Of a stretch of 64,000 nt of DNA, positions 36,731 to 64,000 are shown piece by piece. This stretch comes from Hormiphora californensis (Eukaryota; Animalia; Ctenophora): the NCBI GenBank assembly GCA_020137815.1, contig CM035352.1:62001-126000 (forward strand), in the 5' to 3' direction. The position numbers were made by a program, and so were the translations under genes. Each line of letters starts with the position of its first letter. The first letter of the stretch is position 1. The notes beneath the pieces are model-generated. The model was not told the origin of the DNA, did not search any database, and worked only from the letters and a program-made list of their open reading frames with translations.

Positions 36731-37334
36731 GTTGGCGTAGATCGGGTCCAGCATGAAATAGGAACCTTATAGATCTGGAAGTCCCTTTTCCGACGTACTT
36801 GCGAAGTTACGGATCGGCGATCGGATCAAAGGGACAAGTTGTAGGAAGGTGAATGAGCAGGGCAGAAACTGCGTCAACTATCGGATCAAGCGACTTGCAA
36901 AGAACGCTCTGGATCGAATTAGGAGACTCAGACTCATGTACCGGGACCGACATGCGAGGTCATCGAAACTAAACGCCAACAAAGTACCTTGGGAGACCCA
37001 AGGACACAGGATGGGGACGACAAACAGACGGATCATGCGGTCGGGACTAGGGTCAGGAACATCCGAAATTCTCGTGATGTGACTGTAGAGCATGCGAGAA
37101 TGTCAGAGGAGATCGGAAGAACCACATGTGGAACCGCAAGTCAGCATGACGTAAGTCAAGGTACGGACATTCACTTTGGGGTAATCAGGGGGGAAAAGCA
37201 TAACGAGGAGTTGGACTGACGTAACGGAGACGGGAGAGAGAGACGAATGACGAGGGGACGAGAGAGAGAGAGGTCGAAAGAGAAGTGAGAGAGAGGAGAG
37301 AGAGACGAGAGAGAGGAGATGAGGAGAGAGAGAT

Positions 37335-40813: not shown

Positions 40814-40975
40814 CTGTAATATAATAGCTGATCATTATTACAGGGCATCTCTATTACAGTACTGTAATAGCGAGTTATTACAGGGGCAGCTATTACAGGG
40901 CCTCGCTATTACAGTACTGTAATAGTGAGTTATTACAGTACTGTAATAGCGTGTCGAGATTCTTCCAACCTGCCC

Positions 40976-43432: not shown

Positions 43433-46099
43433 CGGGGGGTCTCTCTCATCTAGTTGAGATCAGCCAAAGGATAGAGAAAGAGAAGGAGCTTGAGTTGGCT
43501 GTGTAGCGGCCAAGCCCTGTACAAAACAGAGGTCAGAGGGGTGCGAGATGCCCAAGAGGTTGATAATAACTATTGCCCAGTACCCGAGACCCGTCCACGC
43601 TATGTTGACATTCTCAGCACCGTGTATATGTGGTTCATCTCTTATTTCTATCATCACCTCGAAGAGAAGATGGTATAACACGGGTGGCCATAAATGAGGA
43701 CAATTTCTGAGGATCAACCCAGACCTATTAATACTAGTACCTACCTACGGGGGGGGGGGTCTGTATCAGACATCTATGGTGGTTAGGGTGGGTGGGTCCC
43801 GCAGGGACCCAGACGGCAGACAGTTAGGGGTTTCCCGGACAGTTAGGATTTTCCTCTAAGTACTGTCAAAATTTTGGAAATTTGGGTCAAAATTTGTGAA
43901 TTTTAGGTCCTGAAGGCACCACAGTGAAATATTTTTGCACGCTACGATTTTGGTCAGGCATCACACTGAAAATGTGGGGTTATGTGCGAACTATTTTTGG
44001 GGGTGGGTCCAAAAATTTGGGTAAGGAGACAGTTAGAGGAGGACCCCTAACTGTCAAAAATTTGAAATTTTCTGGAAAAATAGGTGTGGGTCCCAACTTT
44101 TGGGTTTGGGCAGTAGAGTCCCCCCTCAAAAAGGGGGGTTTTTTTCCCCTGGGCAAGGGGGGGGGTTCCCCAAATTTTTGGGGGGTTTTCCCCCCCCCCC
44201 CATTTAGAAGGGACCCCTCCTTCTTCAATTTTTTTTTTTTCCGGGGGTTTGGGTTTTTGGGGGGGATTTGGAAATAGGTTGGTTTTACCCCCCCCCCCCC
44301 CCTACCGTTTTTGGCCCTTGACCCCTTTTTTCATTCCAACCCTTTCTTTTTGGGTTTGGGGTTTGGAGCTTTACGGTTGCACCGGGTTTAAAAAGGAGCC
44401 CAGGCCCAGTACTTTTTTGGGCACTTTCATCCGGGGTGAAATCGTCTAAAGCCCTGGTTTTCAATAAGCCCCTGTTCCCCCCTTTTTCCCCCCTCCTCCT
44501 ATTTTCCATCTCTCTTTTCCCCCCCTTTCCCTTCTTTCCCCTCTCTCCCCCTTCTTCCTCTCTCTTCCCTCTCTCTCTCTCTCTCTCTATCTCTTCTCTC
44601 TCCCCCTCTCTCTCTCTTTTCTCCTTTTTCCCCTTTCCTCTCTTCTTTAAGCGAACAAAATAATTTCCCCTTTTTTAAAAAATCAAGATTGGATAGAATC
44701 CAGGCTTTTTACGCCAAATGTTTATCTAGAACTAAAAAGAAGAGAGAAAAAAAAAGGGGGGAGAGAGAAGAAGCAGAAAGGGGGTTTTTAGGAAAAAGGA
44801 AGAGAAAAATAAAAAAAGGGGGGGGGGATACGAGTGATGAAAGCTTGGGGACTATATTTTCATTTTACACCCATGCCCCCCGGGCCTCTCCCTTTTCTAT
44901 AAACCTCATAAAGGAAAAGGGCCCAAAAGACCCCCCCCCCCCCCCCCTGGTTTTTTTTACCTAAAAGGGGAGAAGGGGTTTTGTTGAAAGAGGGAGGGAG
45001 AGAGATTCATATAAAATACGAATTACAAAAAATTTTTTGCGGTTCAAACCCAGCTCTCACTTCAAATTAGTCCAAGTCCGTGACTTTGGTGAGACCGCAA
45101 AATTTATCCGGCCTAAAAAAACGGTGTTTTCAAAGTTTTTTGAGGTTCCCCAGAGGGGTTGCCCGGGTTTCAAAAAAAACCCGGGGGAACAAAAAGAATG
45201 GCTTTTTTGGGAATACACATTTGACGTTTTTTTTCGTTTTTCTATCTTTTTTGGGCCGTCTGGAAAGAGCTCAAACCCTCTCAAAAAAAAAACTAAAAAA
45301 GAAGTTGTTTATGGTTTTGACACTGCGACCTTGAAATTAAACCTTTTTTTTCAGGGGGAATTTAAATGGGCTGTGTGCGGTTTTGGGAATCCCACAGTAA
45401 AAAAAATTTTGGGAAAAATTTCCGTTTTGGCTCCCCGGGCCCAGCTTTCCGTAAACCCATTTAAATTTTTGCTATCTTTGTGCGCGCACAGAAATTTGCG
45501 GTTCATATCCCCCCTGAATATGATCTTACAAACAAATTTTTAAAGTCCCTTTAAGAAAAACCCCCTTTAATTTTAAAAAGTGTACTGAAAACCCCCGGTA
45601 GCCCCAAAAAAATTTTAAGGATAGTGCTCTTTTTTACAGTAAGTTTATTTTTGGCATCGCGCGCTCCAACAAATTAATTTCAAAGTGGTTTTCCCTGTCC
45701 GGGTGCTGTACCACTGCGTGGCCAACCGGAAAGGTGGTCCCGTCCATCCCGTGAAAAAAAAATACCGCCAGCTGAAATTTTCTGGACTGAGAAGCTTCTT
45801 GTAGACCTCTTCGATGGTGAAAATTTCAGTGCTAGCTCATTTGTTCGAAAGCTAATACACTACTCCAACAAGAAAAATTCAGAGACCGAGAACGTTACTC
45901 CCCCTACTCCATCCAATCATGCTCTGGAAAATGGCACACGGTTGAAGCGCCAAACAACATCGGTATCCGCTTTTACCAAAATGATCGTCAGGGACTCGAG
46001 CGGAGTGGCCAACATGCCCCACTACCAACATCGTCGGTGGCCACGAAATTCCCCAACTCTTCGCTTCTAGAGCGACCGACTCATGGAAGACCCTTGCCC

Positions 46100-46870
46100 A
46101 AGTAAGTGAACTCAGCCAAAACTGTGTGCAAAGTACTTCTTGGAGAGGGTCTTGAAGGGTAGGTTGTTTTGACCACCTTTCCTCCACTCGGTTCCATACT
46201 CCTCTTTTGTCAGGTTTTGAGTACGAGTGGTGATAACACGAGCGAATGTTCATTTCTGCGGTCCATTCTTCGTGTCGCTCTAGTTGGGGGTGGTTGGGGG
46301 GATCGGTGGTGTCCCCATTTGCCGAGGTACTCGGACCTGCAGTGTTATCATTCACCGTGTGATATCCACTTCCGGGAGTATATTTAGGCCAGATGCTGCT
46401 AGCCTGCTAGCATTCGCTGATCAGCCATCTCCTGCGGTGTTGTTACCATGTGTCCAGATTTTCTCTATTGATCTGAACTGGCTTGAGAGTTTGGCACCTG
46501 TTATGGGGGTTGCACCCTTGTCTTCCCATAGGCGTTCGAGCCTCTTCAGGATCCGGATGTGCCTGGGTTCTGCTGAGTAGTAGCAGTACCCCAATCTAGG
46601 TTCTCTTGCTTAACGCCGACCTTCCTGGTTTACGGGTGTTATACTCATGTCGAATAAGATAAGTAGTTTTGGGGGTGAAGTTTCAAACCAATCACTGTGC
46701 ATTGGTGTTACATAGTCATCGGTTTTTTAGAAGGAAGAGCCGGGTTTGGGGGTCTTAACACACTGCCACCGGTGCACAGCGGTAAACGGAATCCCACCGC
46801 CACATTTGGTCCGTTAGTGGATGGTTTACCCGCCATCCTTGCAGCGCTTTTTTAGCACGAACCGACACTT
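46100..46870 (-). mobile_element. Probable R4-like non-LTR retrotransposon 5' fragment
   Basis: EWTAEMNIRSCY..SKPDKRGVWNRVEERW resembles the WT.E.N...CYY.S.P..RGY..RM...W N-terminal motif I recall for R4-clade ORFs; boundaries approximate. Confidence 0.45.
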
Positions 46871-46929
46871 TCAAGCGTACGGGTGGTATATGTCTATATG
46901 GTGGATCTGGAACGGGGATATATATGTAA

Positions 46930-47730
46930 CATTGTGACTAGCCGGAACGGGGTAAACTATCCCCAGGAACGGATAAAACGATCCCTCCGGAACGGGGCAC
47001 CACCTCTGTGTGAGCGGGGTAAACATCCTCTCAGGCGGGGGTAAGGGGTAATACTTCCTCCCGGAACGGGGCAACTATCCTCTGTGGAGCGGGTAAACTA
47101 TCCTCTCAGGCGCGGGGTGGGGCAACATCCTCTCAGAACGGGGCAACTATCCTCTGTGGATCGGGGTAAACATCCTCAGGCGCGGGTAAGGGGTATACTA
47201 TTCTCTCTGGATCGGGGCAACTATCCTCTCGAGAACGGGGCAACTATCCATACTGTGGAGTGGGGTTAAATATCCGCTCAGGCCGGCAGGTAAGGGGGTA
47301 TACTATCCTCTCCGGAACGGGGCAACTATCCTCTGTGAGCGGGGTAAACTATCCTCTCAGGTGTGGGGTAGGGGTATCCTATATCCTCTCCGGAACGGGC
47401 AACTATCCTCTGCGGAGCGGGGTAAACTATCCTCTCGGTGTGGGGTAAGGGTATACTATCCTCTCCGAACGGGGCACTATCCTCTGTGGAGCGGGGTAAC
47501 TATCCTCTCAGGCGCGGTGGTAGGGGTATACCTATTCTCTCCGGAACGGGGCAACTATCCTCTGTGGAGCGGGGTAAACTATCCTCTCAGGGCGGGGGTA
47601 GGGGAATACTATTCTCTCTGGATCGGGGTAGACTATTCTCTCTGGGACGGACGATGGTAAAATTTCATCCTTGTGAATCAGCGGGGTAAACTATCCTCCC
47701 CGGAACGGGGAAAATGATCCTCTCCGAAGT
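46930..47730. repeat. Degenerate tandem array (~75-80-bp unit with CGGGG(C/T)AACTATCCTCT subrepeats)
   Basis: About 9 units; an oppositely oriented related array (CAGCTGACCCCGCTCCAGAGA) at 48570-48843 suggests subterminal repeats of one TIR element. Confidence 0.8.
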
Positions 47731-48843
47731 AATAACCCTAGTCTGGAGCGGTACCTCTTTAATGAGAGGTTTAGGGGGTTAGCAGATTAGTATCAGGATT
47801 TGTTAGTGGGTATTAGATAAAGGGGCATTGAGGTCCACAGGTGGCGGAAGTGCCGTTCCACGGTAACCCTAAGCCGGGGTAGGAACGTAATAGTTTGGCG
47901 ATGATACACTGTGGGCCGCCTAGCCAAGAGATCTTTTTGTGTTTTGGTATTTTATGATTTTTTTCCCGTATTTTTGATACACAGCCACGCTTAGCCACGG
48001 CCACACGGACCTAAAATCGATCAAGGGAAAAGGGGATGGGAAAGTACTCCGTGTGACCCTGTTGCCCGGGGAACCCGATAGGAGGTGGTGGCAGGTGGAC
48101 AACTCCCCCTCTCTCTCTCCTCTCTCTCCTCCTCTCTCTCCCTCTCTCTCATCTCTCTCGCTCTCGGTCCCCTACACGCCCACTCCCACATGGGGCCGTG
48201 AGGCCAATGCGAGAGCAGGGTTAAAATCCCCGACCCGGATCCTGTTTGGATCTGAGGGCCCGGAGGGTCCTGCGGAGTAAAGGTTAGGGTAGGTAGAACA
48301 ATGTACATACGGGTAAATTTAACATGTAACATTGGGTAAGGAAAAGGGGATGACTATTAAAAAAGGGGGATTAAAGCTCACGGAACGGAGCACAAGACCC
48401 CTAAACTATCTGCAAGAAGCCCAATCCTGCTACAATAATTCTAAGAAGAGACAACTTATCAGGAACTGAAGAGCAAACCGCCCTGAATACAAGGCAGCCT
48501 AAAACAAGCAGGAACGGGGTTCGAGCGAAAAAAAATTATACAATGGATGATGATTACATGTCGAGCCAGAGAGGACAGCCAGCCCGGTCCAGAGAAGCCA
48601 GCTGACCCCGCCCCAGAGAAACAGCTGACCCCGCCCAAAAGCCGCTGGCCCCGTTCAGAAAAACCAGCTGACCCCGCTTCCAGAGAAGCCAGCTGACCCC
48701 GTTCGAGAAGACGCCACCCCTTTCCAGAGAAGACAGTCTGAACCTCAACCCCGTTCCATTAAGGACAGCTACTCCCGCTCCAGTAAATACAGCTGACCCC
48801 GCTTCCAGTAAGACACTTACCCCGCTCCAGAGAGGACCGCCCC

Positions 48844-48943
48844 NNNNNNNNNNNNNNNNNNNNNNNNNNNNNNNNNNNNNNNNNNNNNNNNNNNNNNNNN
48901 NNNNNNNNNNNNNNNNNNNNNNNNNNNNNNNNNNNNNNNNNNN
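48844..48943. other. Assembly gap (100 N)
   Basis: Run of N. Confidence 1.
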
Positions 48944-49759
48944 TCAGTAATGCATAGATGGGCCGCGTGATGGTGCTATAATAATAAAAAAAAGCACAAG
49001 GGGGGGGGGGGGGGGGGTACCAGTATCATGTTAACGGGCGAAGGCCATAAAATCATGGATTATTGAAACCTACCATAGCTTGCATACTGTCTTTGCAAGG
49101 ATTCATTGGGGCCTGCTTCGCGCCGAAGTTCTATTCATCTTTAGACTGCTGTGCTCCTCCATGTATCGCCGTCCTTTTCTTCGGGCTAATGGTGTAGTGA
49201 CACTATCGCCAACTTATACATCATTGTTCCAGCCTTTCGCCTTCGAGACTCACGCATCTCTGTTGTCGTGGAAGTGGCTTCCTATGCCCTGCTTCAACTT
49301 CCAAGCTTATCCCTGGTCCATTCTCTCCCGGTGTTCTTATCCCGTGTACGATCGTAACGAGGAGCACATAATTGCATCATTATCAAATTGACCCTGATTT
49401 TATCGGTACCGTCTCCAACAGCTTTCTAGCATCATGTTTCTGGGTCGCATAGGAGTGCTCTATGAGGTCTGTGGCCCTTCTTTCTATTCGTAATAGAACA
49501 TCCTTGCCTGCCCATCATTATACCTTCTTTATCCTGTCTATGACCATATCGTTCCGAATATTGGCGTATCTTCGATTCATGAAAAATTGAAGTCCTGACC
49601 AGGTCTCTCGATGATAGTGTCCTCTCATCGCGAGCACTAGTACATTGCAGACTGTCAAGATGGTGTGTGTTGGTGGGAGAATAGAAGTGAGTCGCCATAC
49701 CGTCCTTAGATCGTAAGGGTTTCTCGGCGTGTCTGAGACGAAGAGGGAGAGAATGATCA

Positions 49760-50450
49760 GGGGGGTGTGTAGAGTTTTGGTACCAAGAAAATCGGACTAT
49801 TCCATTCCGAGGGTTCATCCAGCTCTTGTACCACACCAGCCTTCATCATCTCACTGATATTCCTCCTCATTTCATCTCTCAACTTGTACGCTGTTGGGAT
49901 TGGGTTCGACCATCTTGGTTCTGCATCGTGTTTCAATTTCACTTCAGCTTCAAAAAAATTTGAGCACCCGATATCATATCCTATTACTGAAATGTATGAA
50001 AGTTGACAGTGTAAATTCTTTCACCTCCTTTTGTCTTCCTCCCCCACTTCTTCACTGCATTTTTCCAAATTCAGCCTCCCGAACAGCTCTTCCTCTGTCC
50101 ACCTCTCTTGTCGCGTTTCTTCAGAAGAGACCCCGTTGACTGTATCTTCTTCTGGTTCCCATCTCACACCTGTCATGGGGCTGTAATCCGGGATAGGTTC
50201 TAGCTGCCCTGCTCTCTCTCCTGCTCGCAGATCAATACTTTCATCTCCCAAATTCAGAACTTCAATTAATATGACGTGATCAACTGCTATAGCCCAACTG
50301 TTCATTCTGAGAATTCTGATACAAAGATATTATTTGCCGTACTGATATATGAGGTAACTCCAACCCCCACAGTTTTCTCCTTGTTAACAGGAGTGTGACC
50401 AGAGGGAATCACAGTGGGTTGAGTTAATCTAGGCACAAACCCACAGTAAC
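49760..50450 (-). pseudogene. Ty3/Gypsy LTR retrotransposon pol fragment
   Basis: KLKHDAEPRWSNPIPTAYKLRDEMRRNISEMMKAGVVQELDEPSEWNSPIFLVPK matches the Gypsy RT N-terminus; upstream IEVLNLGDESIDLRAGERAGQLEP linker; frameshifted. Confidence 0.8.
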
Positions 50451-50604
50451 TATTCGAATTGGCGTATCTTTATATCAGGAATCTCGGATAGCAACCCTTT
50501 TGTTTTATTGCTATCTGAACAGATTAGGCGTATAGACAAGGCTCTTATTATCAGCAGTGCTTACGTTTCAAGGATAATAGTAATAATTATACACTGAACT
50601 GCTG

Positions 50605-50723
50605 TAGGGTTAGGGTTAGGGTTAGGGTTAGGGTTAGGGTTAGGGTTAGGGTTAGGGTTAGGGTTAGGGTTAGGGTTAGGGTTAGGGTTAGGGTTAGGGT
50701 TAGGGTTAGGGTTAGGGTTAGGG
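50605..50723 (+). repeat. Interstitial telomeric repeat (TTAGGG)~20
   Basis: Perfect hexamer array. Confidence 0.97.
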
Positions 50724-51999
50724 CCATAAACAATCGAATTCCTGCCAGCGAGGGCGCGGTTAAGATCAATCGATTTCCTGCCACGCCCACGGTTAGGAAC
50801 ACAGTGTACGGAAATCCGACACATTTTATTTTTAAGTGCTACTTTAGTTAATCACTGCTAATTAGTGGTTGAATATTTTGAAGTTTTAAGAACGGAAAAA
50901 GGGAACAGAAGGGATTATCTATCCAGCTATGTAATTTTTAGTTGAATTTTCAGATCATAACATAAGTCTATCCTTCCAGAACACCAGGTCATTTTTGGTC
51001 AATTTTGGACATAATTGATCAATTATCTAATTGACCAATTAACTTTTTTTAAGGTTAAGCTGGCCTAACCTTCACGTCTCAACGTCCTCTTTCAGATGGT
51101 GTAATTTTTTTGGAATTTTGTAAAACACATTATTGGGCACGTCGCGCCCCCCATGTTCGCGCGCCCGTAGGGCGATCCCCTCACATAGGGGGCACAGTCA
51201 CGACTAGCGCACTCGTAGAATGCTTCGTTCTGCTAAACGGCGCTAGTTAGCGTTTTAATTTTTGGATTTTCTGATCGGTCATGTTCTAAATGAATGCAAC
51301 GAACAGGTCTCGATTTGAAACTCTCAAAAACCGTGGCGTAATCGCCGATTTGCTCAAATCGGTTTTTTGGCAATTACGGGAGAACGGAATATCCATAAAA
51401 TCCCAAACTCTGGGATATGTTAGAGGAGACAATTTGACACCTTCGTGTCGAAGGATTTTTCGCTTATTCTTCTGGTCTTCAACTGACGGCCATTTGAATT
51501 AATTTGACCTCTCTTCCCCCGACCCTTAGTCCCACTAAACGACAGCTTTATAAGTAACCATCTTTTTTTCCCAGGTAGAGAATCCCTTGAACTGGTGCAA
51601 CGTATAGGTGGATAAGCCAGAAACGATTTCTGGACAGAGGAATCGACTCTCAAAGTTGGATGATTTCAAACAGTGATTGGACTTTTTGGGACACTTTGAC
51701 TTTAAAAAGAGTGATACATTTATCATTTTCCGACATAATTTTACCTAATTTGACCAACTAAAGTGTTTAATTAATCGTTAATTGCTTAATTAAGAAAATC
51801 GGACGCGCAAATATACAAACGCGCAGTTTTTTTCAACTTACCGCGCGCGATGAATAAATCATCGCAAGGCAAGTGTGCGCGAGCTAGAAAATCTTTTAAA
51901 TTTTTCAAAAACAAACTTTTTCACAGCCTTGCGCACCTGTCCCTCACTGAACAGCATTTACTTGACGATGAGGTACGTGCAAAAGTCTTTAATTATTAA

Positions 52000-52083
52000 G
52001 GGGCGATTCAAAAAGGACGTTGAGGGATAGGGGGAGGGGCAGGTAGCCGATTTCGAAAACGGACGTCCTTTTTGAATCGCCCC
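52000..52083. mobile_element. PIF/Harbinger (Tourist-like) MITE, 84 bp
   Basis: taa|GGGGCGATTCAAAAAGGACGT ... ACGTCCTTTTTGAATCGCCCC|taa. Confidence 0.85.
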
Positions 52084-52097
52084 TAAACCCAAAAAAA

Positions 52098-52309
52098 AGG
52101 TAAACCAAAACTACTGTAGCCCTTGCTGTGCGCGACCGGATTTTAGACGGCCATAGCTCCACCCCTGATAAGATACGAGATTTGTTTTGAGATCATGTCG
52201 AGTTCTTCCTACAAAACAAATCTCAAGTCTATCTCATCAGGGAGTGGAGCTATGACCGTGGAAAATTTCACAAAACCAGAGCGAGGGCTATAGTAGTTTT
52301 GGTTTACCT
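52098..52309. mobile_element. Kolobok-like MITE (diverged copy)
   Basis: Homologous to 8334-8559; TIR AGGTAAACCAAAACTACT. Confidence 0.75.
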
Positions 52310-52311
52310 TT

Positions 52312-52705
52312 ACATCCTTCGTTAGCGTCCAGTTTCAACTACAAAAAGTCAGTGTGCATCTTGTATCTAAGTTATGTAGTCAGAATTCATATGTTTCTGA
52401 GCCTACGACAAGAATTGCAGGCCTTCTAACCTTGATGTCCATCTCGGAGTCTCTTATCCATGAACCAAGATTTAAGATTAGTGTGACAGTTTGGTACAGG
52501 TTCCGTCTATCTGTGTATTTCTAGCTCCTTTACTGAAGCAATGCCATCAGCAGACTCTTCTCCTTGGGGCACGTTTCAGTGTAAATGGGTGCCTCTCCAG
52601 TCCCAAGTGCAGTTCGCATACATGTCAGTAAAGACCTGTGCTTTATTGTTAGCATGTATATATAAAACAGACAAAGCATCTGTGCTCTGTGATTTTCAAG
52701 GTGAC
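52312..52705 (-). pseudogene. Decayed RTE reverse transcriptase fragment
   Basis: Minus strand reads LGSWIRDSEMDIKVR...WTLTKD, matching 36508-36730. Confidence 0.65.
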
Positions 52706-53270
52706 TAAGGTAGCTCAAATAATAGGGCAACCTTCCCGGCCTATTAATTTCAATTAATATCGGTATAATATTGGTATAATAAAAAATAAAAAACAACGGT
52801 GTGGATGTTTAGACATAATCTATGTTATAATCTATATTATAGTACAATTAAATACCTTTTTATAAATCAAGATTTGTTTCAGACACGTGCTACTGGCTAT
52901 GATATTGGCGTCGGCACAGTCACTTTGCTGGATCAAAGGTGTTACTTATCATCTCCAGAGGAACACAACGCAGTACTGTGGCTCAGTTGAACGCGCTATG
53001 ATGATTCACGAAGGTTAGTTTTGCATTATAATAAAACATATTTCGTGTCCTGGTGTTTGTACCGTTTCAGTGAGCTAGCTAAGCTAAGGAGCTTCTAAAA
53101 TCATTCCCCTACTAAAACGCTATCTCGTGCGATCTCGTGCGATCTTGAATATGGGACAAGTTGAACTCATGTTGTGCACTATCGTCCTAGGAACAGATAG
53201 TCGATTAGTCATTTATAGGTATGACAACATGGGAAGATCATAACGTAAATATTTAGTACTTACTTCTGGT

Positions 53271-54483
53271 TTAGGACATTGTTGTAAGTTTATCAAGCAG
53301 CTCGTCCTTCTCTACCTGTTGTTTCCGCTCTATTTTCTTGGTTTCTTTGCGGTACAAAGATGCTGATATGAACTTGTAACATGCCAATGACAGGCGACAG
53401 TAAACTGCTAATATCGGTAGTAGTAAGATACCTGAAACATTTTTTAGTCCCGACCTTGTTTCACTATACCTTGTTTCACTATACCTTGTTTCACTATACC
53501 CCACACACAAGATAAGAGGAGAGTTAAAACCTCCCTCCCTCCCTCCCTCCCTCCCTCCCCTCCCTCCCTCCCTCCCTCCCTCCCTCCCTCCCTCCCTCCC
53601 TCCCTCCCTCCCTCCCTCCCTCCCTCCCTCCCTCCCTCCCTCCCTCCCTCCCTCCCTCCCTCCCTCCCTCCCTCCCTCCCTCCCTCCCTCCCTCCCTCCC
53701 TCCCTCCCTCCCTCCCTCCCTCCCTCCCTCCCTCCCTCCCTCCCTCCCTCCCTCCCTCCCTCCCTCCCTCCCTCCCTCCCTCCCTCCCTCCCTCCCTCCC
53801 TCCCTCCCTCCCTCCCTCCCTCCCTCCCTCCCTCCCTTTTTTCTAACCAGCAATAATGACGAATAATATAAGACGCCAGTGCGAAATACCCCCATCCACA
53901 ATGCCAATAAGTTCGCCAAACAGTTCGCCGATAGAGTGACTATGAGTATGCTCCTTTTCCTCTCCTTCTTTTTCGTCAGCAATCAAATCCGTCCTAGAGA
54001 GTAAGACATGAGCTGATGAACACCCTGTTACATGAAGTTCCCCGACCAACCAATAATTTTTACGTGTCACATATATATGTATCACAACAATATATATGTA
54101 TCACAACAATGTAAACCCCGATTAAGATAGGTGTAATATCGGTAGTTTGAAGATTTTACACGCACTCGTTAACTGCGAGCTGGGTGATTGATTTTAGCTA
54201 TAAAAATGAGGGCTCCCTGTGTCAAACAGCTGGGAAGCAGAGCTGCCCCAACAAGGGTGCCACCAGATCATCCTTGAATAATATTTTTAAACGTCAACTT
54301 ACGCATTAAATTCAATATCTGAGATATCCACTGATTTGACATTATCACGATAAATGAGGTGTCCCTCTATCTTCCTTGGTGGGTAAATGGTTTCACCTGT
54401 AGGGATATTATTTGATGTATCTTGATACTTGTAGAATACGGACAGTGGTGACATTTTTGAGAGAGAGAGAGAGAGAGAGAGAT

Positions 54484-54556
<73 letters not shown>

Positions 54557-57500
54557 AAGAGAGAGAGTGAGTGAGTGAGTGAGTGAGTGAGTGAGTGAGT
54601 GAGTGAGTGAGTGAGTGAGTGAGTGAGTGAGTGAGTGAGTGAGTGCGTGCGTGAGTGGTGCGTGGTGCGGTGGTGACGTGAGTGTGGTGTCGTGCGTGCT
54701 GCGTGCGTGCGTGCGTGCGTGCGTGGTGCGTGCGTGCGTGCGTGAGTGAGTGCGTGAGTGAGTGCGTGGTGGTGCGTGCGTGGTGCGTGGTGCTGGTGGG
54801 CGTGGTGCGTTGGTGCGTGAGTGACGTGCGTGGTGGTTGCGTGGCAGGAGGAAGCAGGCGAGACGACGCAGCGCGGAGCGGCGGCTGCGTCGCGTGGGTG
54901 CGTGTGCGTGCGTGCGTGATGACGTGCGTGCGTGCGTGCGTGGTGCGTGCGTGCGGGTGCTGGTGCTGGTGACGTGCGTGGTGCGTGTGAGTGGTGCGTG
55001 CTGCGTGCGTGAGTGCGGTGCGTGCGTGCGTGGTGCGTGCGTGCGTGGAGTGCGTGAGCTGCGTGCGTTGCAGTGCGTGCGTGCGTGGTGGTGCGTGCTG
55101 CGTGAGTGCGTGCGTGGGCGTGGTGACTGCGTGCGTGCAGTGGTGAGTGAGTGAGTGAGTGAGTGAGTGAGTGAGTGAGTGAGTGAGTGAGTGAGTGAGT
55201 GAGTGAGTTAGTGAGTGAGGAAAATTCCAGATTTAAATGTACCTCCTTTAATGTTAACGGATAGTGTTGTTTTCCAATCGAAGAAGCAGGTGCTAGCCGT
55301 GCACTTCCTCTCATTTCCTGCGACCATCTCCCCAACAACCACCAAACTGTGGACGTTTCCTACCAGTATCCCCGATGGTAGGTCCACGTAAGGTGTACTG
55401 CTGGGGCACTCAATGGTCTGCCTGGGGCACGACTCACTGTTAAGTTGCAGACAGCTCAACTTGTGGTCCTGAAGAGAAATTAATATAATTATAATTTAGT
55501 ATATATGTATTATACCAAAACTAATTGAAATTAGTAGGCCGGAAAGGTTGCCCTATGATTTGAGCTACCTTTGCCACCGTAACATTCACGGGGTAAAAAC
55601 AGGGTATAACAGATGTTTCGTCTATCTTCAAAAGGAAATACATACTGGTGCCAAAGGTAGCTCAAATCATAGGGCAACCTTTCCGGCGTACTAATTTCAA
55701 TTAGTTTTGGTATAATTTGCATCATTCTTGGGATTTTTATCCATTTAGATGTAGTAGAACAAGTACAGAGAGGATAGAATCGCTTAGTTGCATTTTTTTC
55801 ATTTTTGACGTCATTTTGACGTCATAAAATGACGTCACGACGTCATGAAGTCAAAATTTTGACGTCATATTATCGGGATTACCTAGATGAAGTTACTGAC
55901 CAAGTTTGAGATCGATTGGATAAGATTTGAGTCCGCTATGGCGAAAAACCCCATATCGTCATATCTAATTTTAAACAGTCATAACACTTCAGACGCGTTT
56001 TAAGACCCTTTATATACATGTAGTTTTGAAAATATAGTTTCTGAAAGTTCAGACAATTCTCTTTCCATGATATAGTCTTCGTGTTTCGATTAGAATCCGT
56101 CTTCAGGCTGTAAATTGAGCTCAAATAATAAGATAATATTTGGGCCCACTATACACTAGTTTTGGTGTAATTTTTGGGATTAGATGTACATAGTTCAAAG
56201 ATGCAATAAAATTGCAAAATTTTCATTTATGACGTCATAAAGCGACATCATGTCATAATGATGACGTATTATCATCCGGATTACCTAGATAAAGATACTG
56301 TAATTTCAGAATAAAATCTTCACGGGATTTTACCTTTGCGCTTGCCAGCGCATTGACTTACTGCTGTCACAAAATACTGTGCGTCACGCTCATAAATTGG
56401 CCCACGTACAACCACCCTCTTGCATTTTCCTCCAACTATCAGGTCTGTAGATAACGCCATAAATTCCTCCACCAATCTGACCCTCTTTGGCATTATCACC
56501 AACCCGTGGAAGGTTATAGGCCCACTGACGTCCACTTCTGTCAGTTGCATCCTCCCCAGGTCGATGACGGCATCGTAAGGAATGCTATCCTAAAACAGGA
56601 GTATTTTGCATTAATTAAACTATGTTTTGGGAACCTTGAAGTGCAATTTGAATATATATTCTTAAACATCTATTGTGATTTACAGTTTCATGGTTACTTA
56701 CATTAATCAGGGTTTTCAGTAATGAAGACGTGGCAGTCTTCAAGTCAATCCTCTCGATTGATTTATACCTTAATAGCCTCAGGACAGTTTCCTCGAACAG
56801 CGTCATATCGTGTCTATATCGTGTATATAATAGAATTATGTATACAGTCGACGACGGAAAATCATTTCCTAGTGCAGGAGCTAAGTAGTAAAGATCGGCA
56901 CGTGCCAAAACTTTTGGAGCTATGACAAAAATGTGACTTTTGGCCCAAAAGTCACCTTTTTGTCATAGCTCCTTCCAAAAAAATCACTAGTGTGTTAGTA
57001 ATATAATGTAGGGGTGCTTGTGTTAAGGGTGCGACGTGCCCAAATGATGATCTACCTGCTCCTACTATATCACAATGAACAGCTGGTAGTAAATCACGAC
57101 ATATCAATTTACTTACCGTTTATCCAGCGTAAACATTGCCAGCTGCTCCCAGCACTGGATAACTGTCGCCACTGCCCTGAGGCTAGAAGACTCCTGCCAG
57201 AACCCCTCCACTACGTGCTTGTTAAACTGAACCTAAATATACGGAATTTGATAAGTTTGGCAAATGTTTACTACTCTTACTTATATATCCATTAGAATGT
57301 AAACACTTAGCCAAACTTACATGATCCTCTCCATTCTTGTGCGACCCAAAAAGCTGCCTTTCGATCTCGTCACGAAGGTTAAATCTCTTCGATCGGGAAC
57401 CTATTTTAAGGTAATTATAGTTTGTCACACACAAAAACTCCACAACAAGCTCATGTGAGGCCCTTGTCCCTCACTCAAACAGTTAATATAGTATCTTAAT

Positions 57501-58090
57501 ATAGTATACTTACTCTGTAGACTCGTTGGTCCACCTACTTGATCAACTTTATCGGCCAAATATAACAAATCTTTTGTTAGGTTTTCAACAGCTAGAAATG
57601 AAGTGAGTCAGGTTGCCCTTTTATCACTAAATGATGCAGTAACTAGCACAAAAGTTGCTTGGGTTTTAACTATTTAACTCAAATGTAATTACTTACTCGT
57701 TGTCCATCCGTCAAAACATGTATCTATGTCCTCCCGTCCCTTGAACCCTCTCCTCCCATCCATGAGTCCTCTTATCATTACCGGTATCTCTATCACCGGG
57801 ATATCAACAGTTATAACCACGTTCATTGTCGTAATAGTTGTATCTGCCAGATAAGAGAATAAGAATTGGTTGATTGATCTGCGAAATTGAAATGCAATAA
57901 ATGAGTGGGTGGGCATTTTAGCACGTGTGCTAAAAATATCATACAGGTTTTTTATAACGATTTTTCTCAAAACCATCTTACCTTCAACGATCCATTTGTG
58001 CCCAGAAGAGTGGAGCACTGTTCCAATAGAAGGGTAAACGATCTTGGCTTGTACTAGCTGGCATATCAGCAGGATTGCAAAGATAATCAT
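53271..58090 (-). CDS. Spliced type I membrane glycoprotein, 498 aa, F-type viral envelope-like (candidate domesticated env)
   Basis: Coding exons (minus): 57982-58090, 57697-57843, 57514-57591, 57321-57400, 57117-57232, 56702-56813, 56362-56589, 55243-55468, 54303-54396, 53848-53993, 53271-53431. Total 1497 nt, no internal stop, all GT-AG, phases match. Signal peptide MIIFAILLICQLVQA, furin site RSKR, TM WRLILFVIIAGILLLPILAVYC. Gene structure is firmer than the family call. Confidence 0.85.
53530..53836. repeat. (CCCT)n microsatellite in the last intron of the env-like gene
   Basis: Direct inspection; G-quadruplex-capable (GGGA)n on the transcribed strand. Confidence 0.97.
54459..55219. repeat. 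Compound microsatellite (GA)n-(GAGT)n-(GCGT)n-(GAGT)n in an intron
   Basis: Direct inspection; central part degenerate. Confidence 0.95.
55510..56125 (+). repeat. Copy of the abundant palindromic-end repeat family, intronic
   Basis: Reverse complement of 26260-26884. Confidence 0.85.
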
Positions 58091-59228
58091 CACGCTAGAT
58101 CTAAAGGAAATAAAAATAATAAATAATTTTAAATGTAAGATACATCGTTTACATTCTTGCTGAGGTCGTTCCTGGCGGCCCACTTGGGGGAATAAAACCT
58201 CTGCGCTTGCCAGTGCAGTGACTAGTTCGGGTCAGACCACGAATTACCAGAAACCCGATTTACCGGATTATATAATAGGGAATTTACAGTATGTATTTTG
58301 CCCCCCCCCCCCCCCCCCATATTGTATGTATGTATTATAAAAGTATATTAACCCAAGTTCCTCACTACAGATCCATGCCAATGTGGTCACGAAGGACTGA
58401 TGGTACGCATTGAGAGAGACATTTGTGGGGGGATAACCGTTCATGGGTTCGGATGTTGCAAGGTTGTAAACCCACCGCTGACATGCCATGAAGGTTTGAA
58501 AACAATTTTTTTAAATCTGCTTTTAAAATTGGAACTTAAGTCGGATTTTTTGAAGTTGTCACCCCCCTGGTGTGCGGAATGTTTTTGTGCATCACATGAC
58601 ATGTTAACGTGTGATGTTTGGCTCAAAACTGAAAAATTTTACATGTGCTTTGAGGGTGACAACTTTAAACATGTGCAGAGTTTCATGTGATCTGAAATCT
58701 AATTTAATTAGCTAATGAGAGAACGGGCACTTGAATGCAGTTACATTTTATGTGATCTTCATAGTTGGTATTGAAGGCGCCATCGTGTTTTTATTGATCA
58801 AAAGCCGCACATAGTGGCTCAAAATTTCCGTTATAAATGGCCTCATCATATTTAGTGAAACCAGTTAATTGGTTTAATGAAGGAGCAGTTACTATGCGCT
58901 GACGTGACGTTACGCATTTTGACCACGCTCGAGTTCTATCTATCTACGGAGTGCCTGGGCTTGCCAACGGCAAGCCCACAGGGGACTATCGCAAAGCGAT
59001 ATCGCCGGCACTAGGAGAATAGCCCCCCTCCCCTCCCCCACCATCAGGAACTGCCCACAGGACAGGTTCCATTATAGGTGGCTTCGGGTTCGGGAGGGTA
59101 AACGCTCGAGTTATTGTCCTTTCAAATCCTTTATGATCTTTTTAGCACACGTGCTAAAACAATCAACCGGATGGATGCCTTCGGCATCCACCCGGGCAGG
59201 GGAAAAAATCCCAAATCCCATTATTAGA

Positions 59229-59870
59229 GAACGAAGTGGAGGACAAACGTGAGGAGAACGGTGAGGAGCCCAAAGATGAGGAGGCAAAAAATGTACTTAT
59301 TACCATTGCCTGTGTGGCTAGTTTCTTCACCATCATTTCCCTCATCCCCAAAGCAGTGTAAGAAATTTAACATTATTCTCTACCTATTTTAATTTTTATT
59401 GTGATGGTTAAATTTGCACTTGCAAAATTGTAGTTGCAAAATAATAATCAAATAATTTAATTTGCACCCCCCCCCCCCCCCCAGAAGAGGATGTATTTCA
59501 TTGACAAGAAGAATATTTATCCGAAACCGTCCGGTTCCAGCTACGGTTCCGGTTCCGACTGCCCGTTACAGCCGCCCCGTATGTGAGGGGACCGCCCTAC
59601 AGGCGCCCGAGAATGGGGGGCCCGTCGTGCCCAAGGTAGCGTCGGACTTTTCACTTGCGGATTTATGTTAAAAACATTGCCGTAATTCTTCCTTTGAATA
59701 TCTGCAGGATGCATACTATTCTTTTGGGTATCAAATTACCAAATTATGGTCAAATATCCATTTGAGATTCAGTACACGTCCCTAGGGATCGTCTTATTGG
59801 CCATATATAGAACTGTTTTTAACAATTGTTTTGATATCGGGTGCCTTTGGTTATTTAATAAAAAGACACT
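59229..59870 (+). pseudogene. Possible membrane-protein (GPCR TM6-TM7-like) exon relics
   Basis: AG-flanked exon 59229-59356 (..KNVLITIACVASFFTIISLIPKAV|gtaag) is phase-compatible with the acceptor before 59708; YTSLGIVLLAIYRTVFNNCFDIGCLWLFNKK follows only after a frameshift. Confidence 0.3.
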
Positions 59871-60436
59871 TATTTCAGCTATCAATGTTATTTTACTATG
59901 TAATAATTTTTTAAAGACTTATTTTAAATTAATTTGCGGTAAAATTGGCACACTTACACCTTTCGCTAATTTCCACCAGTTTATGACTTTTTATCCCGTC
60001 CTTTTTGTGTGTGTTTTGTGAGCCAGGATAACCTTATAAGCAATAAGAACCATAACCTGACCATTGCTATATTGATATCTACACCGCCGACACAATTGTG
60101 TGTCTTTGTTTAACAGTAAATTTGTTTATTTTAAATCTTTATTAAGAATGTGTGGGATGTTCTAAGCTACCCTACACCGCCATCCAAAAACAATTTTTAA
60201 TGATTAACGACCTAAATGTGTGTCCTTGTTTAATAGAACTGTTTATTTTTAATTTTTTCAAGTTTATAAAATATGTGTTTTTAACAACTAACAGCAAATT
60301 TGCCAAAAGAAATCTGGCACTTTCATCATTGCGACCACAGAAGGGGTCATTGTATCAACACACTGACCCCGGCCTCATCTCGATAACTACATCGATCCCT
60401 CCCAAGTGTTGCAGTTGTTGGTACATACAGCGCCGA

Positions 60437-60519
60437 CAGTCGGACTCCGATTTACCGGGATGCTCGGGGGAAAGGGTTTTGCTTGTAAATCGGGGTCCCG
60501 GTAAATCGGGGTCCAACTG
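60437..60519. mobile_element. Short pogo-type MITE within a 392-family foldback remnant
   Basis: CAGTCGGACTCCGATTTACCGGG ... CCCGGTAAATCGGGGTCCAACTG. Confidence 0.7.
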
Positions 60520-61451
60520 TTCCTGTTCGGAATGACGATCCAAACAAATGTAGATACCAAAAAGTGAAATAATTGAGAGGGGTCGATGTAGTCATCGACT
60601 CTAATGCGGCATTTAATAATAATAATATTTGGTATCACAGGTACAGAGAGCACAACATTTTCTAGGTTATCCAATGAGTGATCCGGAAAACAAAATTGAT
60701 GCACCTAAGCCGAAACGGAAACGTCGTGCTAGTAAACTGGACCGACGGTCTGTCTTGAAAAGCAAGTCCCCCCGTGATACCCCCACTCAAGGAATGCTTA
60801 CTTTTTATGACTTTATCGATGAAAAGTATGTTTTATTTAAATTCCTTTTATCACTGTGCTGGAAAACGCGGGGGAGGGGGGGGGGGGTAATCATGGTGAC
60901 AAATGGTGACAAATGGTGACAAATGGTGACTCATCTGACCATTTAGGGTATGTCACCAATCACCATCACCATTTGTCACCATTTTTTGACGAAATGTGCG
61001 GATTTCGGCCGAATTACTATGAAAATTTTATAAAAATATATATTTTTTCATAAATTGTTAACATGGCCATTACGGATCGGCTAGTAATTTTTTGAAAAGC
61101 TAAAACTTCCCAAAAGTCACGTTTAGGGTGTGCCTCCTTCGCACAACACATAAAAGCGCAATTAACCACCGGTTACCCCTTAATTACATCCAATCGACTT
61201 GAAACTTGGTAGTGTCCCATAACATCATATTATGCCTGTAGGAAGCTCCAGAGATGCTCCATGATTACCCCCCCCCCTCCGCCCCGCAAACGCAAAGGTG
61301 GCCCCATCGTCCCATGACTGTTCTAAACAAAATCCTCTCTTAGAATAAAAGAAGAAGAAGAGGTAAAGCAGAAGAAGGAACAGCTACAAAAGGTAATAAT
61401 TAGAATAATATCATTGAAATTAGTAGGCCGGAATGGCAACCTTTGTGCTGG

Positions 61452-61712
61452 CCAGCAGCTCCAGGACTACCATTAGTTCCCCTCATTCCTGGGGTACCAG
61501 GTCGTCCAGCATACCCGTCTCGTCTTGCCCGCCTAGCATGAGGGGCGTGACGTGCCCAACGTCTCGTCCGGGGGCACCCACAGGCCACAGCACCCTTGGC
61601 ACCAGCAGCTCCGGGAGTACCATCATTTCCGGGGGTTCCAGGGGTTGATTTTCCAGGAGCACCCGCGTCACCGGGGTAACGACAGTTACCGGGTCGGCCA
61701 GGGGTACAGTCG
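61452..61712 (-). pseudogene. Collagen-like Gly-X-Y fragment
   Basis: CTPGRPGNCRYPGDAGAPGKSTPGTPGNDGTPGAAGAKGA...DGYAGRPGTPGMRGTNGSPGAAGQ, with interruptions and a probable frameshift. Confidence 0.65.
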
Positions 61713-62203
61713 GACGTCCATATATACTGAGATACTCTGGTGAAGGGGTTTTGCCCGGGAAATTGGGACAATAGAGAGGGGGTACTACACTGCACGTGCT
61801 AACGGAAAGAGGTTGATACATAGATAGATAGACCCGGGACATTTATTGCTTTTTTCACGATGCCATATCTCTAAAACGAAAAGAGCTAGAGACGTGCCCT
61901 TTGAAACTATAGTAGACCTAGACTATGTGACACTGTATACCGATTAGTGCAGTGGGGGCCTCGCAATGGGCCTCGCAAAATGCCATTTTTGGCTAAAAAC
62001 TGAAAAAAGTTATTACTGCATTCTGGCACGCGCGGCTTTGGGGGGGATGGTCACCTTTGCGCTTGCCAGCGCAGTGATATATGGAATCGGTAACAGTAAT
62101 GAGTATGCTCAGGCATTGGGACCCTGAGACGTAGTTTACGGCCACTAATAATCCTAGTGGACGCCCTCACTCATCACACTCATTAATGAGATCATTGGTG
62201 CTA

Positions 62204-62479
62204 TATGAATACCACGTATATAATATGCATTAGGGTTATCACGAAAAGCTGCATATCAGTGGCACCTGACTATCTGGAAATCAGGGTTTTTATATGAATA
62301 CCACATATTATACACAGAAGGGATCATTATTAAAGCGGTGTATCAGTGGCACCTGACCATCTTGAGAACAGGTTTTTTTATGAATACCACATATACACAG
62401 AAGGAATCATTATTCAAACGGTGTAACAGTAGCACCTGACCATCTGGAAATCAGGGTTTTTTATGAATACCACGTATAT
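62204..62479. repeat. ~85-bp minisatellite, ~3.2 units
   Basis: TATGAATACCAC...CAGTGGCACCTGAC..TCTGGAAATCAGGGTTTT repeated. Confidence 0.85.
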
Positions 62480-62593
62480 GCAGTAGGAACAAAATCTTCT
62501 CTTGAATAAAAGAAGAAGAAGAAGTAAAGCAGAAGAAGGAACAGCTACAAAAGTAGGCCGGAATGGCAACCTTTTTGCTTGCCAGCGCAGTGA

Positions 62594-64000
62594 CTAACTG
62601 TCGCTGTCAAAATCACTGTCCATGCTGTCTAAACTGTCATCACTCGAAGATAGCTCAAGGTTATCATATATGGGCTGTGTTTCTATCCTTTGACAAGATG
62701 GGCGGTCATAAACAAAATCAAAATCATGAAAGTAGCAGTGTACTAATTTCAGAACTTGGTGCTTCAGCTGGTTATCAGTTAAAAAATCGAGTTGATCAAC
62801 TGATTTGAGCCTAGGCAGCATTGTCACTATCTTACCAATGTCGGATGTGTCAAGCTTGGCTAGTCCGAAACTAGGACCTCCAAAGCTGACCGACGTTTCT
62901 TGAATTTGCTTAAGATCACCTTCAAAGTGTTTCTGTAAGCTCCTGTTAATAATTCTGTCGCCCATATCCTGATCCTGTGAGTCCTCCTGACGTTCCTTGG
63001 CTTCGTTAGTCATAGATTGAATGAGCTCGTCAGCTGGGTTGCAGCAGTTGCTGCACTTACCACAATCACTGTGAGTTGCTTCACATGGAAAGTATGTGGC
63101 AAGTTGGCGAACCCAACATACTTTCGAACTCCCTCTGAGACAAAGTCTCACACCAGGTTCGGTTGCGGAATGGAGTTTGTCGGCCCATGGATAAAGCATC
63201 GTGAACCCCAATTTTCCATTTCGGGCCGTTCGTCCTACGATTAAATTTATTTTAACAAAAAAGCCGTCATTACGTATTTAACGGGGCAATATAATATGTA
63301 ATAGCACAGCTGTATTTAAACTTACCACACTTTTGCAAAAACTCCTCGAATGAGGTCGGAAGTCCCAGTTGAATGACGTATCTCACGTTCGTTATATTAA
63401 CCCCTGAAATTGTTCAAAATCAACTGCACAGTGTGTTTATTTAGCATGCATCTGGAAAATAATTTCTATTAAAAAAGGCATTATGTACAGTCGGATCCCG
63501 GTTTTAACGGACAAAACCCCCGAGGGTGCCGTTAAATCGGAGTCCGACTGTAGTACATATTTAAAAAAAATTACCCATAGATAGTGCTGTTGTTGCCAAT
63601 ATAACACTGTACTGGTAGTTTTCCATCCCAAAGTCTTCCATTAGCTCCTTTTTCTTGTTCTCTTCGGTGAGCTTTGTGAAAATTGTTAAACAGCCCTTAT
63701 TACTGAGATAGTGCTTCAGTTCATGGTACAACGTTCCACAATCTTCTATTTTCCTGGCAAAAATTAGAACCCTAGAAGAGAAGTTTTATATTAGTGAGAT
63801 CCTGGCCGGCTAATTTCAATTAGTTTTGGTATATGTATATATAATATACTTTTATGCTATATTATACCTTCCATTTAATCTATCTTTGTTGATGAATGTG
63901 GCTAGTCGTATCATCGACAATTCCACGCCTTTACTGAACACCGTTATTGATAATGTGTCTGGTATGGGCATTCGGTGCATCTCAAACACAGTGTTGTTGT
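62594..64000 (-). CDS. RecQ-like SF2 helicase, 3' exons (AcademH-type); 5' part lies beyond the window
   Basis: Exons 63868->64000, 63575-63771, 63326-63403, 62594-63234, phases match. Motifs VLIFARKIEDC (IV), VILATTALSMGVNITNVRYVIQLGLP (V), FLQKCGRTARNG (VI), Zn-binding CWVRQLATYF...CGKCSNC, acidic tail. Confidence 0.85.
63488..63550. mobile_element. 63-bp pogo-type MITE in a helicase intron
   Basis: ta|CAGTCGGATCCCG ... CGGAGTCCGACTG|ta. Confidence 0.8.

What the first reader, a model, noticed from the sequence alone, without database searches (positions are those of the whole stretch)
53271..58100. Hidden 11-exon gene encoding a viral F-type envelope-like glycoprotein (candidate domesticated env/fusogen)
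Seen: eleven minus-strand exons joined at GT-AG introns give one uninterrupted 498-aa frame, with every splice phase matching. The protein runs: signal peptide MIIFAILLICQLVQA; beta-rich KIVYPSIGTVLHSSGHKWIV...MNVVITVDIP; helix with an N-glycosylation sequon (NLT); furin motif RSKR|F at ~aa 114-117; long amphipathic helices; YDAVIDLGRMQLTEVD...FHGLVIMP; Cys cluster (GKCKR, SCLQ..SCPR..IECP, KCTASTCFFDW); one TM helix; basic/charged tail. Established: signal peptide + short F2 + furin site + F1 + TM is the layout of class I F-type fusion proteins (paramyxovirus F, baculovirus F, errantivirus Ty3/Gypsy env), and domesticated env genes exist (mammalian syncytins, Drosophila Iris). Inference: ten introns, no flanking LTR/pol in register, and intact exons amid TE-filled introns point to an old, selected host gene derived from an env, apparently in a non-bilaterian animal. 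Family assignment rests on my pattern recognition only.
Basis: partly seen in the sequence, partly recalled or inferred. Interest (0 to 1): 0.92.

Follow-up and report, generated by a model that had tools for sequence, protein, structure and literature searches.

The report
Intron-rich gene resembling viral fusion protein
An intact eleven-exon eukaryotic gene encodes a predicted surface protein that likely descends from a measles-type viral fusion protein but has no greasy fusion tip after its cleavage site, so it would more likely act as a decoy or adhesion protein than fuse cells.

Summary
The gene model is real. Eleven minus-strand exons, ten GT-AG introns with matching phases, give 498 aa with one terminal stop; 0 of 500 shuffles give so long a spliced frame. 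Signal peptide, RSKR|F site and one transmembrane helix are present. The F-type assignment is only partly supported. A ~40-residue stretch of exon 8 matches the in-register region of 37 paramyxo/pneumovirus F proteins (0 of 1000 shuffles, 0 of 1500 natural segments), but the other four segments are at chance level. Full-length hhalign probability is 13.6%, and there is no baculovirus-F similarity. No homologue or RNA support turned up; no genome is held and the spliced protein could not be folded, so host taxon and copy number stay open. Best reading: an old host gene derived from an F-type env and likely fusion-dead, like Drosophila Iris but with ten coding introns (0.42). Rivals: ordinary lineage-specific membrane protein (0.30), mobile-element cargo (0.15), active fusogen (0.13).

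The parts
57982..58090 (-). Coding exon 1 (aa 1-37): ATG, predicted signal peptide, first predicted beta strand; an AG acceptor lies at 58101-58102, 10 nt before the ATG
   Evidence: phase, donor GTAAGA, 19-residue hydropathy 2.15
57697..57843 (-). Coding exon 2 (aa 37-86)
57514..57591 (-). Coding exon 3 (aa 86-112), sequon N89
57321..57400 (-). Coding exon 4 (aa 112-138): furin-type RSKR|F (57395-57384) followed by a hydrophilic stretch where F proteins carry the fusion peptide
57117..57232 (-). Coding exon 5 (aa 139-177); holds a V-A-T-x-x-Q motif at aa 159-164 (57172-57155), a possible remnant of a fusion-peptide core (noticed post hoc)
56702..56813 (-). Coding exon 6 (aa 177-214)
56362..56589 (-). 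Coding exon 7 (aa 215-290), predicted beta-rich; no significant F match on its own
55243..55468 (-). Coding exon 8 (aa 291-366); aa 292-333 (55465-55340) match the C-x7-C..G..N region of paramyxovirus F in register
54303..54396 (-). Coding exon 9 (aa 366-397), sequon N396 across the junction with exon 10
53848..53993 (-). Coding exon 10 (aa 397-446): acidic/His stretch, start of predicted TM helix
53271..53431 (-). Coding exon 11 (aa 446-498): end of predicted TM helix, charged tail, stop
53187..53263 (-). Probable 77-nt intron in the 3'UTR (GTAAGT..TTCCTAG); first AATAAA at about 52647
   Evidence: predicted from sequence only
55481..56129 (.). Dispersed repeat inserted in intron 7, 90% identical over 660 nt to 26262-26913

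Best explanation
This is an intact, spliced gene for a predicted type I surface glycoprotein that likely descends from a paramyxovirus-like (F-type) retroelement envelope and is likely no longer able to fuse membranes. Shown in the sequence: reading frame, splice sites, signal-peptide-like N-terminus, R-x-K-R site, single TM segment, absence of a hydrophobic peptide after the site, and a shortened F1. Inferred: it is secreted and furin-cleaved into a short F2-like and a long F1-like chain and sits at the cell surface, probably as a trimer; it was captured long ago, since ten coding introns had to be gained. With the fusion peptide and much of the heptad region gone, the retained head would serve as a binding module, most likely a decoy that blocks or poisons related env-bearing elements, as proposed for Drosophila Iris, or as an adhesion or recognition protein.
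For: Gene; 0 of 1497 exon bases fall in window repeats against 26605 of 64000 bases overall. F link: exon 8 against the in-register F region scores 53.3, reached by 0 of 1000 shuffles and 0 of 1500 natural segments, and at most 29.1 against the other four F regions. Its best local hit falls at residues 343-368 in 25 of 37 paramyxo/pneumovirus F proteins; hhalign of exon 8 alone gives P 0.0023, 41% identity over 39 columns. The whole protein aligns colinearly over 435 columns with the R-x-x-R|F site on the family's cleavage site and the TM on its TM (probability 13.6%, E 0.002). That is stronger than the profile-profile score between baculovirus F and paramyxovirus F, which the eLife paper treats as homologous (0.26%, E 0.24), so weak scores are expected at this distance. 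Loss of fusion: hydropathy of the 20 residues after cleavage is -1.40 against 1.30-2.08 in 37 of 37 family members; cleavage-to-C356-equivalent distance is 178 against 245-247; the helical moment of the pre-TM stalk is low (0.09-0.17 at aa 388-417). Plausible donors exist: F-type env elements are reported across invertebrates, including cnidarians and ctenophores (PMC13524379). Precedent: Iris (PMC1262188 passages).
Against: Four of five segments match their F region no better than chance (shuffles at or above the score: 762, 841, 594 and 655 of 1000); Fisher combination 0.08 (shuffles) and 0.04 (natural). Even in exon 8 only 4 of 9 highly conserved columns match, and the C388/C393/C395 trio does not. 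hmmsearch gives 3.1-4.4 bits, below 5 unrelated ORFs. In whole-ectodomain profile tests 0, 4 and 1 of 129 unrelated ORFs and about 7 of 158 (some of these carry the motif used to fetch them) scored as high, and one unrelated ORF reached hhalign 27.2 against 28.0 for the ectodomain. No Pfam family per exon and no true homologue. Iris lost its furin site, whereas this gene keeps one. The decoy role is by analogy only.
Confidence: 0.42

Rival explanations
1. An ordinary, lineage-specific cellular type I membrane proprotein with a furin site; the resemblance to F is chance plus a common layout.
For: Only one of five segments matches F; hhalign probability 13.6%; 4 of 9 conserved columns match in the best segment; ten coding introns are unusual for env-derived genes (Iris orthologues have none, Iris-B has one; PMC1262188); no fusion peptide.
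Against: The one strong match falls in register with both the cleavage site and the TM; a V-A-T-x-x-Q motif, matching four invariant residues of the family's fusion peptide, lies 41 residues after the cleavage site, at a natural rate of 0.007 per 100 aa (post hoc); no exon matched a cellular Pfam domain above cut-off.
Confidence: 0.3
2. An F-derived gene that is spliced cargo of a DNA mobile element, for example a helicase-encoding transposon, rather than a domesticated host gene.
For: Repeat-rich, gene-poor surroundings (42% of the window in dispersed repeats). The only other intact multi-exon gene I found is a divergent spliced RecQ-like helicase on the same strand, ending 4.5 kb upstream, and helicases of this Pfam family occur in AcademH/KolobokH elements (PMC10799480 passages). 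A 61-nt inverted repeat pair, 87% complementary, brackets the gene at 51133-51193 and 59574-59634.
Against: No second copy in the window; by eye the inverted pair has no target-site duplication, and its first 17-23 nt recur at 57043 and 61559; intron 7 carries a younger insertion and introns 8 and 10 long microsatellites, as in settled host DNA; no transposase linked to the gene was recognised.
Confidence: 0.15
3. A domesticated F-type protein that is still an active cell-cell fusogen, using an internal or acid-triggered fusion segment around aa 145-174 after furin cleavage.
For: The furin site is kept and in register; the most hydrophobic 20-mer of aa 101-250 starts at 155 (0.94) and holds the V-A-T-x-x-Q motif; domesticated mosquito envs keep cleavage site and fusion peptide (PMC1262188).
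Against: 0.94 is below the family minimum of 1.30; only one R-x-K/R-R site exists, so no second furin cut would expose this segment; in that register even more of the first heptad region is missing; the pre-TM stalk is charged and weakly amphipathic.
Confidence: 0.13

Closest known systems
Paramyxovirus/pneumovirus fusion glycoprotein F0 (Pfam PF00523)
   Same: Signal peptide, basic cleavage site about 115 aa from the start, C-x7-C..G..N segment in register, single C-terminal TM.
   Different: No hydrophobic fusion peptide after the cut, F1 67 residues shorter before the C356-equivalent, several invariant cysteines unmatched, about 16% identity, and encoded by eleven nuclear exons.
F-type env of Ty3/gypsy 'errantiviruses' across invertebrates (PMC13524379; abstract, passages, first parts of sections 6 and 9, supplement searches)
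   Same: Most plausible donor class: F-type env with conserved furin site, reported in many phyla; 6 of the 7 ctenophore rows shown in the supplement search are ENV_F.
   Different: Those are ORFs inside LTR-gag-pol-env elements with a conserved fusion peptide.
Drosophila Iris (CG4715) and the mosquito domesticated envs (PMC1262188; passages)
   Same: Host genes derived from F-type env; Iris lacks the fusion peptide and is proposed to act in defence.
   Different: Iris is baculovirus-F-like, lacks the furin site and is intronless (Iris-B has one intron). This gene keeps the furin site, has ten coding introns and shows no similarity to a baculovirus-F profile.
Lokiretrovirus Env (PMC7947760; passages)
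   Same: Retroelement env with detectable similarity to PF00523 and an RXKR site.
   Different: Vertebrate proviral ORF with fusion peptide and coiled coil; not compared by sequence here.
Mammalian syncytins (as described in PMC1262188 passages; otherwise recalled)
   Same: Idea of a host gene from a retroelement envelope.
   Different: Retroviral-type env and active fusogens with an intact fusion peptide; a different protein family.

Membership tests
Paramyxo/pneumovirus-type F (PF00523) | Type I topology: signal peptide and one C-terminal TM helix | tested here: met
   Hydropathy peaks at aa 1-19 (2.15) and near 438 (2.99); hydropathy only, no dedicated predictor
Paramyxo/pneumovirus-type F (PF00523) | Basic cleavage site separating short F2 from F1 | tested here: met
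   RSKR|F at 114-118 aligned with the family site; cleavage itself untested
Paramyxo/pneumovirus-type F (PF00523) | Hydrophobic fusion peptide directly after the cleavage site | tested here: not met
   -1.40 against 1.30-2.08 in 37 of 37; invariant core replaced by charged residues
Paramyxo/pneumovirus-type F (PF00523) | Full-length heptad regions and F1 spacing | tested here: not met
   178 against 245-247 residues from cleavage to the C356-equivalent; weak helical moment before the TM
Paramyxo/pneumovirus-type F (PF00523) | Conserved cysteine pattern | tested here: inconclusive
   C356 and C364 matched by C296 and C304; C388, C393, C395 not matched; C70, C193, C332 not matched in the hhalign register
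Paramyxo/pneumovirus-type F (PF00523) | Significant profile score | tested here: inconclusive
   Whole protein 3.1-4.4 bits on my own profiles; baculovirus F scores 0.6-4.0 on the first profile; exon 8 significant in a register-restricted test; only single exons were scanned against Pfam
Paramyxo/pneumovirus-type F (PF00523) | F fold and trimer | not testable with these tools
   The spliced protein could not be folded; single-exon models had mean pLDDT 38-39
Baculovirus F (PF12259) | Profile similarity | tested here: not met
   hhalign E 0.45 against 4 sequences; not among the top 19 against an 8-sequence HMM, below shuffles. Insect errantivirus envs were not in the set.
Errantivirus (intact element) | env ORF within LTR-gag-pol-env | tested here: not met
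   No LTR-like direct repeat of 40 nt or more around the gene in 48950-64000; no long gag/pol ORF nearby; ten introns
Domesticated env host gene (Iris/syncytin type) | Intact frame outside a retroelement | tested here: met
Domesticated env host gene (Iris/syncytin type) | Low copy number, syntenic orthologues, purifying selection | not testable with these tools
   No genome held; no homologue found
Domesticated env host gene (Iris/syncytin type) | Expression as a spliced transcript | not testable with these tools
   No RNA holder was listed

The most novel reading that the evidence does not exclude
An ancient F-type retroelement envelope was domesticated in an early-branching animal, gained ten coding introns, and is still a working cell-cell fusogen with a non-canonical internal fusion segment. 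If the host is a ctenophore, it is a testable candidate for the protein that fuses neurites of the syncytial nerve net.
Probability: 0.07. Interest if true: 0.93.

Novelty: new variant of a known kind. Interest (0 to 1): 0.58.

Why it matters
The F-type domestications I found in print (Iris, the mosquito genes; PMC1262188) are baculovirus-F-like, and Iris has no or one intron. A paramyxovirus-F-like host gene with ten coding introns would be a much older capture from a different branch, and host-side evidence for the recent proposal that F-type env elements go back to early animals (PMC13524379). Keeping the furin site while losing the fusion peptide would be a new combination. My searches listed no paper on such a gene; they cover open-licence PMC and bioRxiv only.

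Tried and rejected
No whole genome is held. RNA: no RNA holder was listed; the one run offered (X1, kind guessed) laid nothing on 55230-58500, which says nothing about expression. Pfam on all 11 exons: no family above cut-off. NCBIfam on exons 7 and 8: none. Word-based homologue searches with exons 7 and 8: none among 54 and 10 candidates. HMMER over 1.84 billion representatives with exon 8: one hit, P0121 (E 1.6e-4), a repetitive sequence with no Pfam family above cut-off, rejected as spurious. The third homologue search, with the paramyxovirus alignment, listed only close paramyxovirus F proteins and added no diversity. PDB sequence search with exons 7 and 8: nothing meaningful. Viral contigs with exon 8 and metagenome contigs with exon 7: none. 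ESM Atlas with exon 8 and with the exon 1-intron 1-exon 2 ORF: no usable hit. AlphaFold2 on single exons: pLDDT 38-39, too low for a fold search, which was not run. hhalign in global mode gave no useful alignment. A missed exon supplying a fusion peptide: introns 3, 4 and 6 have no candidate; intron 5 has 19 frame-neutral AG..GT pairs, one with a GTGA donor (57051-56956), not pursued. Rejected: baculovirus-F membership; env of an intact LTR element. The prokaryotic promoter/terminator scan is not relevant to this gene. Scan notes held nothing on this genome or sequence. The AcademH paper was not held. The eLife figure supplements with the F-type env alignments are images I could not read, and they bear on the fusion-peptide comparison.
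Full report
OBSERVATION. I rebuilt the gene from the minus strand. Eleven exons between 58090 and 53271 join at ten GT..AG introns, with every phase matching, into 1497 nt: 498 residues and one stop. Eight donors read GTAAG; of the 10 GTAAG sites on that strand of 53200-58300, eight are these donors and a ninth opens a probable 77-nt intron just after the stop. As a chance control I computed the longest ATG-started frame that can be spliced with GTAAG donors in 55200-58120: 1350 nt with 6 introns in the real sequence, at most 909 nt in 500 dinucleotide shuffles, and at most 657 nt in 77 of 78 other window tiles, the exception being a LINE reverse transcriptase. None of the 1497 exon bases lies in a repeat found elsewhere in the window, while 26605 of 64000 window bases do; intron 7 holds a 660-nt insertion 90% identical to 26262-26913. 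The gene is real and looks maintained. The junctions are predicted only, and intron 1 is frame-neutral and stop-free, so it could be retained.

ANATOMY. By hydropathy the protein has an N-terminal signal-like segment and one TM segment near 432-456; there is one R-x-K-R site (114-117), three sequons (89, 214, 396), eleven cysteines and a 42-residue charged tail.

IS IT F-TYPE? Library searches with single exons found nothing. I therefore gathered natural F proteins from the viral contig collection with short recalled motifs: 37 paramyxo/pneumovirus-type (two checked as PF00523) and 8 baculovirus-type (two checked as PF12259), and scored the spliced protein locally. HMMER gave 3.1 and 4.4 bits; these are not significant, but baculovirus F gets only 0.6-4.0 bits on the first profile, so the test is weak at this distance. 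hhalign gave a colinear alignment of 435 columns from signal peptide to tail, 16% identity, probability 13.6%, E 0.002, with the R-x-x-R|F site on the family's cleavage site. The ectodomain scored 28.0 against 15.6 +/- 2.1 (max 21.6) in 60 shuffles, but six unrelated ORFs picked as earlier high scorers reached 17.9-27.2. Whole-ectodomain profile alignments beat nearly all shuffles, yet 0, 4 and 1 of 129 and about 7 of 158 unrelated ORFs did as well; some of the latter carry the motif used to fetch them.

The register-restricted test is the clearest. Exon 8 against F residues 345-440 scored 53.3, reached by 0 of 1000 shuffles and 0 of 1500 natural segments from 134 control proteins lacking the fetch motifs; the other four segments were at chance. 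Its best local hit falls at residues 343-368 in 25 of 37 family members and at scattered positions in the 8 baculovirus proteins. Four of nine highly conserved columns match (C356, C364, G382, N387); the C388/C393/C395 trio does not. There is no similarity to baculovirus F. For scale, the baculovirus and paramyxovirus profiles score only 0.26% against each other. I put F-type ancestry at about 0.65-0.7; the fold is untested, since single-exon models had pLDDT 38-39.

CAN IT FUSE? Probably not. The 20 residues after the cleavage site have mean hydropathy -1.40 against 1.30-2.08 in 37 of 37 F proteins, and the distance from cleavage to the C356-equivalent is 178 against 245-247. The stalk before the TM is acidic and His-rich with a low helical moment. 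One loose end keeps the fusogen reading alive: a V-A-T-x-x-Q motif, matching four invariant residues of the family's fusion peptide, sits at 159-164 in the most hydrophobic stretch of this region (0.94); its natural rate is 0.007 per 100 residues, but I noticed it afterwards, and no second furin site precedes it.

CONTEXT. No LTR pair flanks the gene and no long gag or pol frame lies near. Downstream, beyond a (TTAGGG)n tract at 50605-50723, 50020-49760 looks by eye like the broken start of a Ty3/gypsy reverse transcriptase on the same strand (recalled pattern, not confirmed). Upstream, four exons from the window edge to 62594 form an intact 348-residue frame with helicase motifs (Helicase_C E 0.0007 and 0.004; recQ E 0.003). 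Such helicases occur in AcademH/KolobokH transposons (PMC10799480, passages), and a 61-nt inverted repeat pair brackets the gene without an evident target duplication, so a cargo reading cannot be dismissed. The host clade is not established. TTAGGG repeats and short GTAAG introns fit an animal, and a ctenophore-like genome is my recalled impression only.

MECHANISM. Shown: frame, splice signals, layout, missing post-cleavage hydrophobic peptide, shortened F1. Inferred: secretion, furin cleavage, an F-like head displayed at the surface, capture from an F-type env element followed by intron gain, and a non-fusogenic role, most likely as a decoy against related elements or as an adhesion protein (0.42). 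Rivals: unrelated cellular protein (0.30), mobile-element cargo (0.15), active fusogen (0.13).

COMPARISON. PMC13524379 (abstract, passages, first parts of sections 6 and 9, supplement list and two searches) reports F-type env elements across invertebrates with conserved furin site and fusion peptide, and has no occurrence of 'domesticat' in its main text. PMC1262188 (passages) describes Iris, which lacks furin site and fusion peptide and is intronless except for Iris-B, and mosquito genes that keep both features. PMC7947760 (passages; lead from scan note e1-7806935) describes lokiretrovirus env similar to PF00523. PMC7617566 (passages) describes the ctenophore syncytial nerve net, with 'fusogen' only in its reference list. 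I also read passages of PMC10730927, bioRxiv 10.64898/2026.08.30.748148 and PMC3670739; they did not change the reading. Searches listed no description of an intron-rich, paramyxovirus-F-like host gene. The protein fails the fusion-peptide and spacing criteria, so I do not file it as a member of PF00523; it is laid out like an F protein and is probably derived from one.

VERDICT. Observation confirmed, interpretation partly supported. A likely new variant of env domestication, resting on one good local match and the layout. Interest 0.58; one structure prediction of the spliced protein would move it sharply either way.

Noticed in passing
window 62594-64000 (-): Intact, spliced, divergent RecQ-like helicase C-terminal part (exons 63998-63868, 63771-63575, 63403-63326, 63234-62594; 348 aa, cut by the window edge); could belong to a helicase-encoding DNA transposon.
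   Followed up: partly
window 51133-51193 and 59574-59634: 61-nt inverted repeat pair, 87% complementary, bracketing the gene at 8.4 kb; no evident target-site duplication; its first 17-23 nt recur at 57043 and 61559.
   Followed up: partly
window 49100-50500 (-): Broken frames; 50020-49760 resembles by eye the start of a Ty3/gypsy reverse transcriptase; the following 49796-49521 frame is unassigned. No library hit.
   Followed up: partly
window 50605-50723: Perfect interstitial (TTAGGG)n tract of about 20 copies, 1.7 kb from the 100-N gap at 48844-48943.
   Followed up: no
window 62592, 62076, 58220, 56355 (-) and 25794 (+): Recurrent ~22-nt motif (TCACTGCGCTGGCAAGC core), once directly after the helicase stop and once at the start of intron 7; probably the end of a small dispersed element.
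   Followed up: partly
window 39011-40831 (-): 606-aa open frame of a non-LTR reverse transcriptase (RVT_1 E 1e-33); a decayed related fragment lies near 36482-36769.
   Followed up: partly
window 14180-14950 (-) and 21921-22442 (-): MULE transposase fragment (E 1e-6) and a Cys-rich transposase-like frame without a Pfam hit.
   Followed up: no
window about 1730-3190 and 3970-5425: Near-identical duplication of about 1.4 kb at a spacing of about 2.24 kb (same tandem repeats and ORFs).
   Followed up: no
window 61400-61798 (-): Short Gly-rich collagen-like frame (G-x-y repeats) between repeats; status unclear.
   Followed up: no
window 43900-48800: Noisy, satellite-like sequence with 23- and 78-nt periods next to the gap; possibly low-quality assembly.
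   Followed up: no
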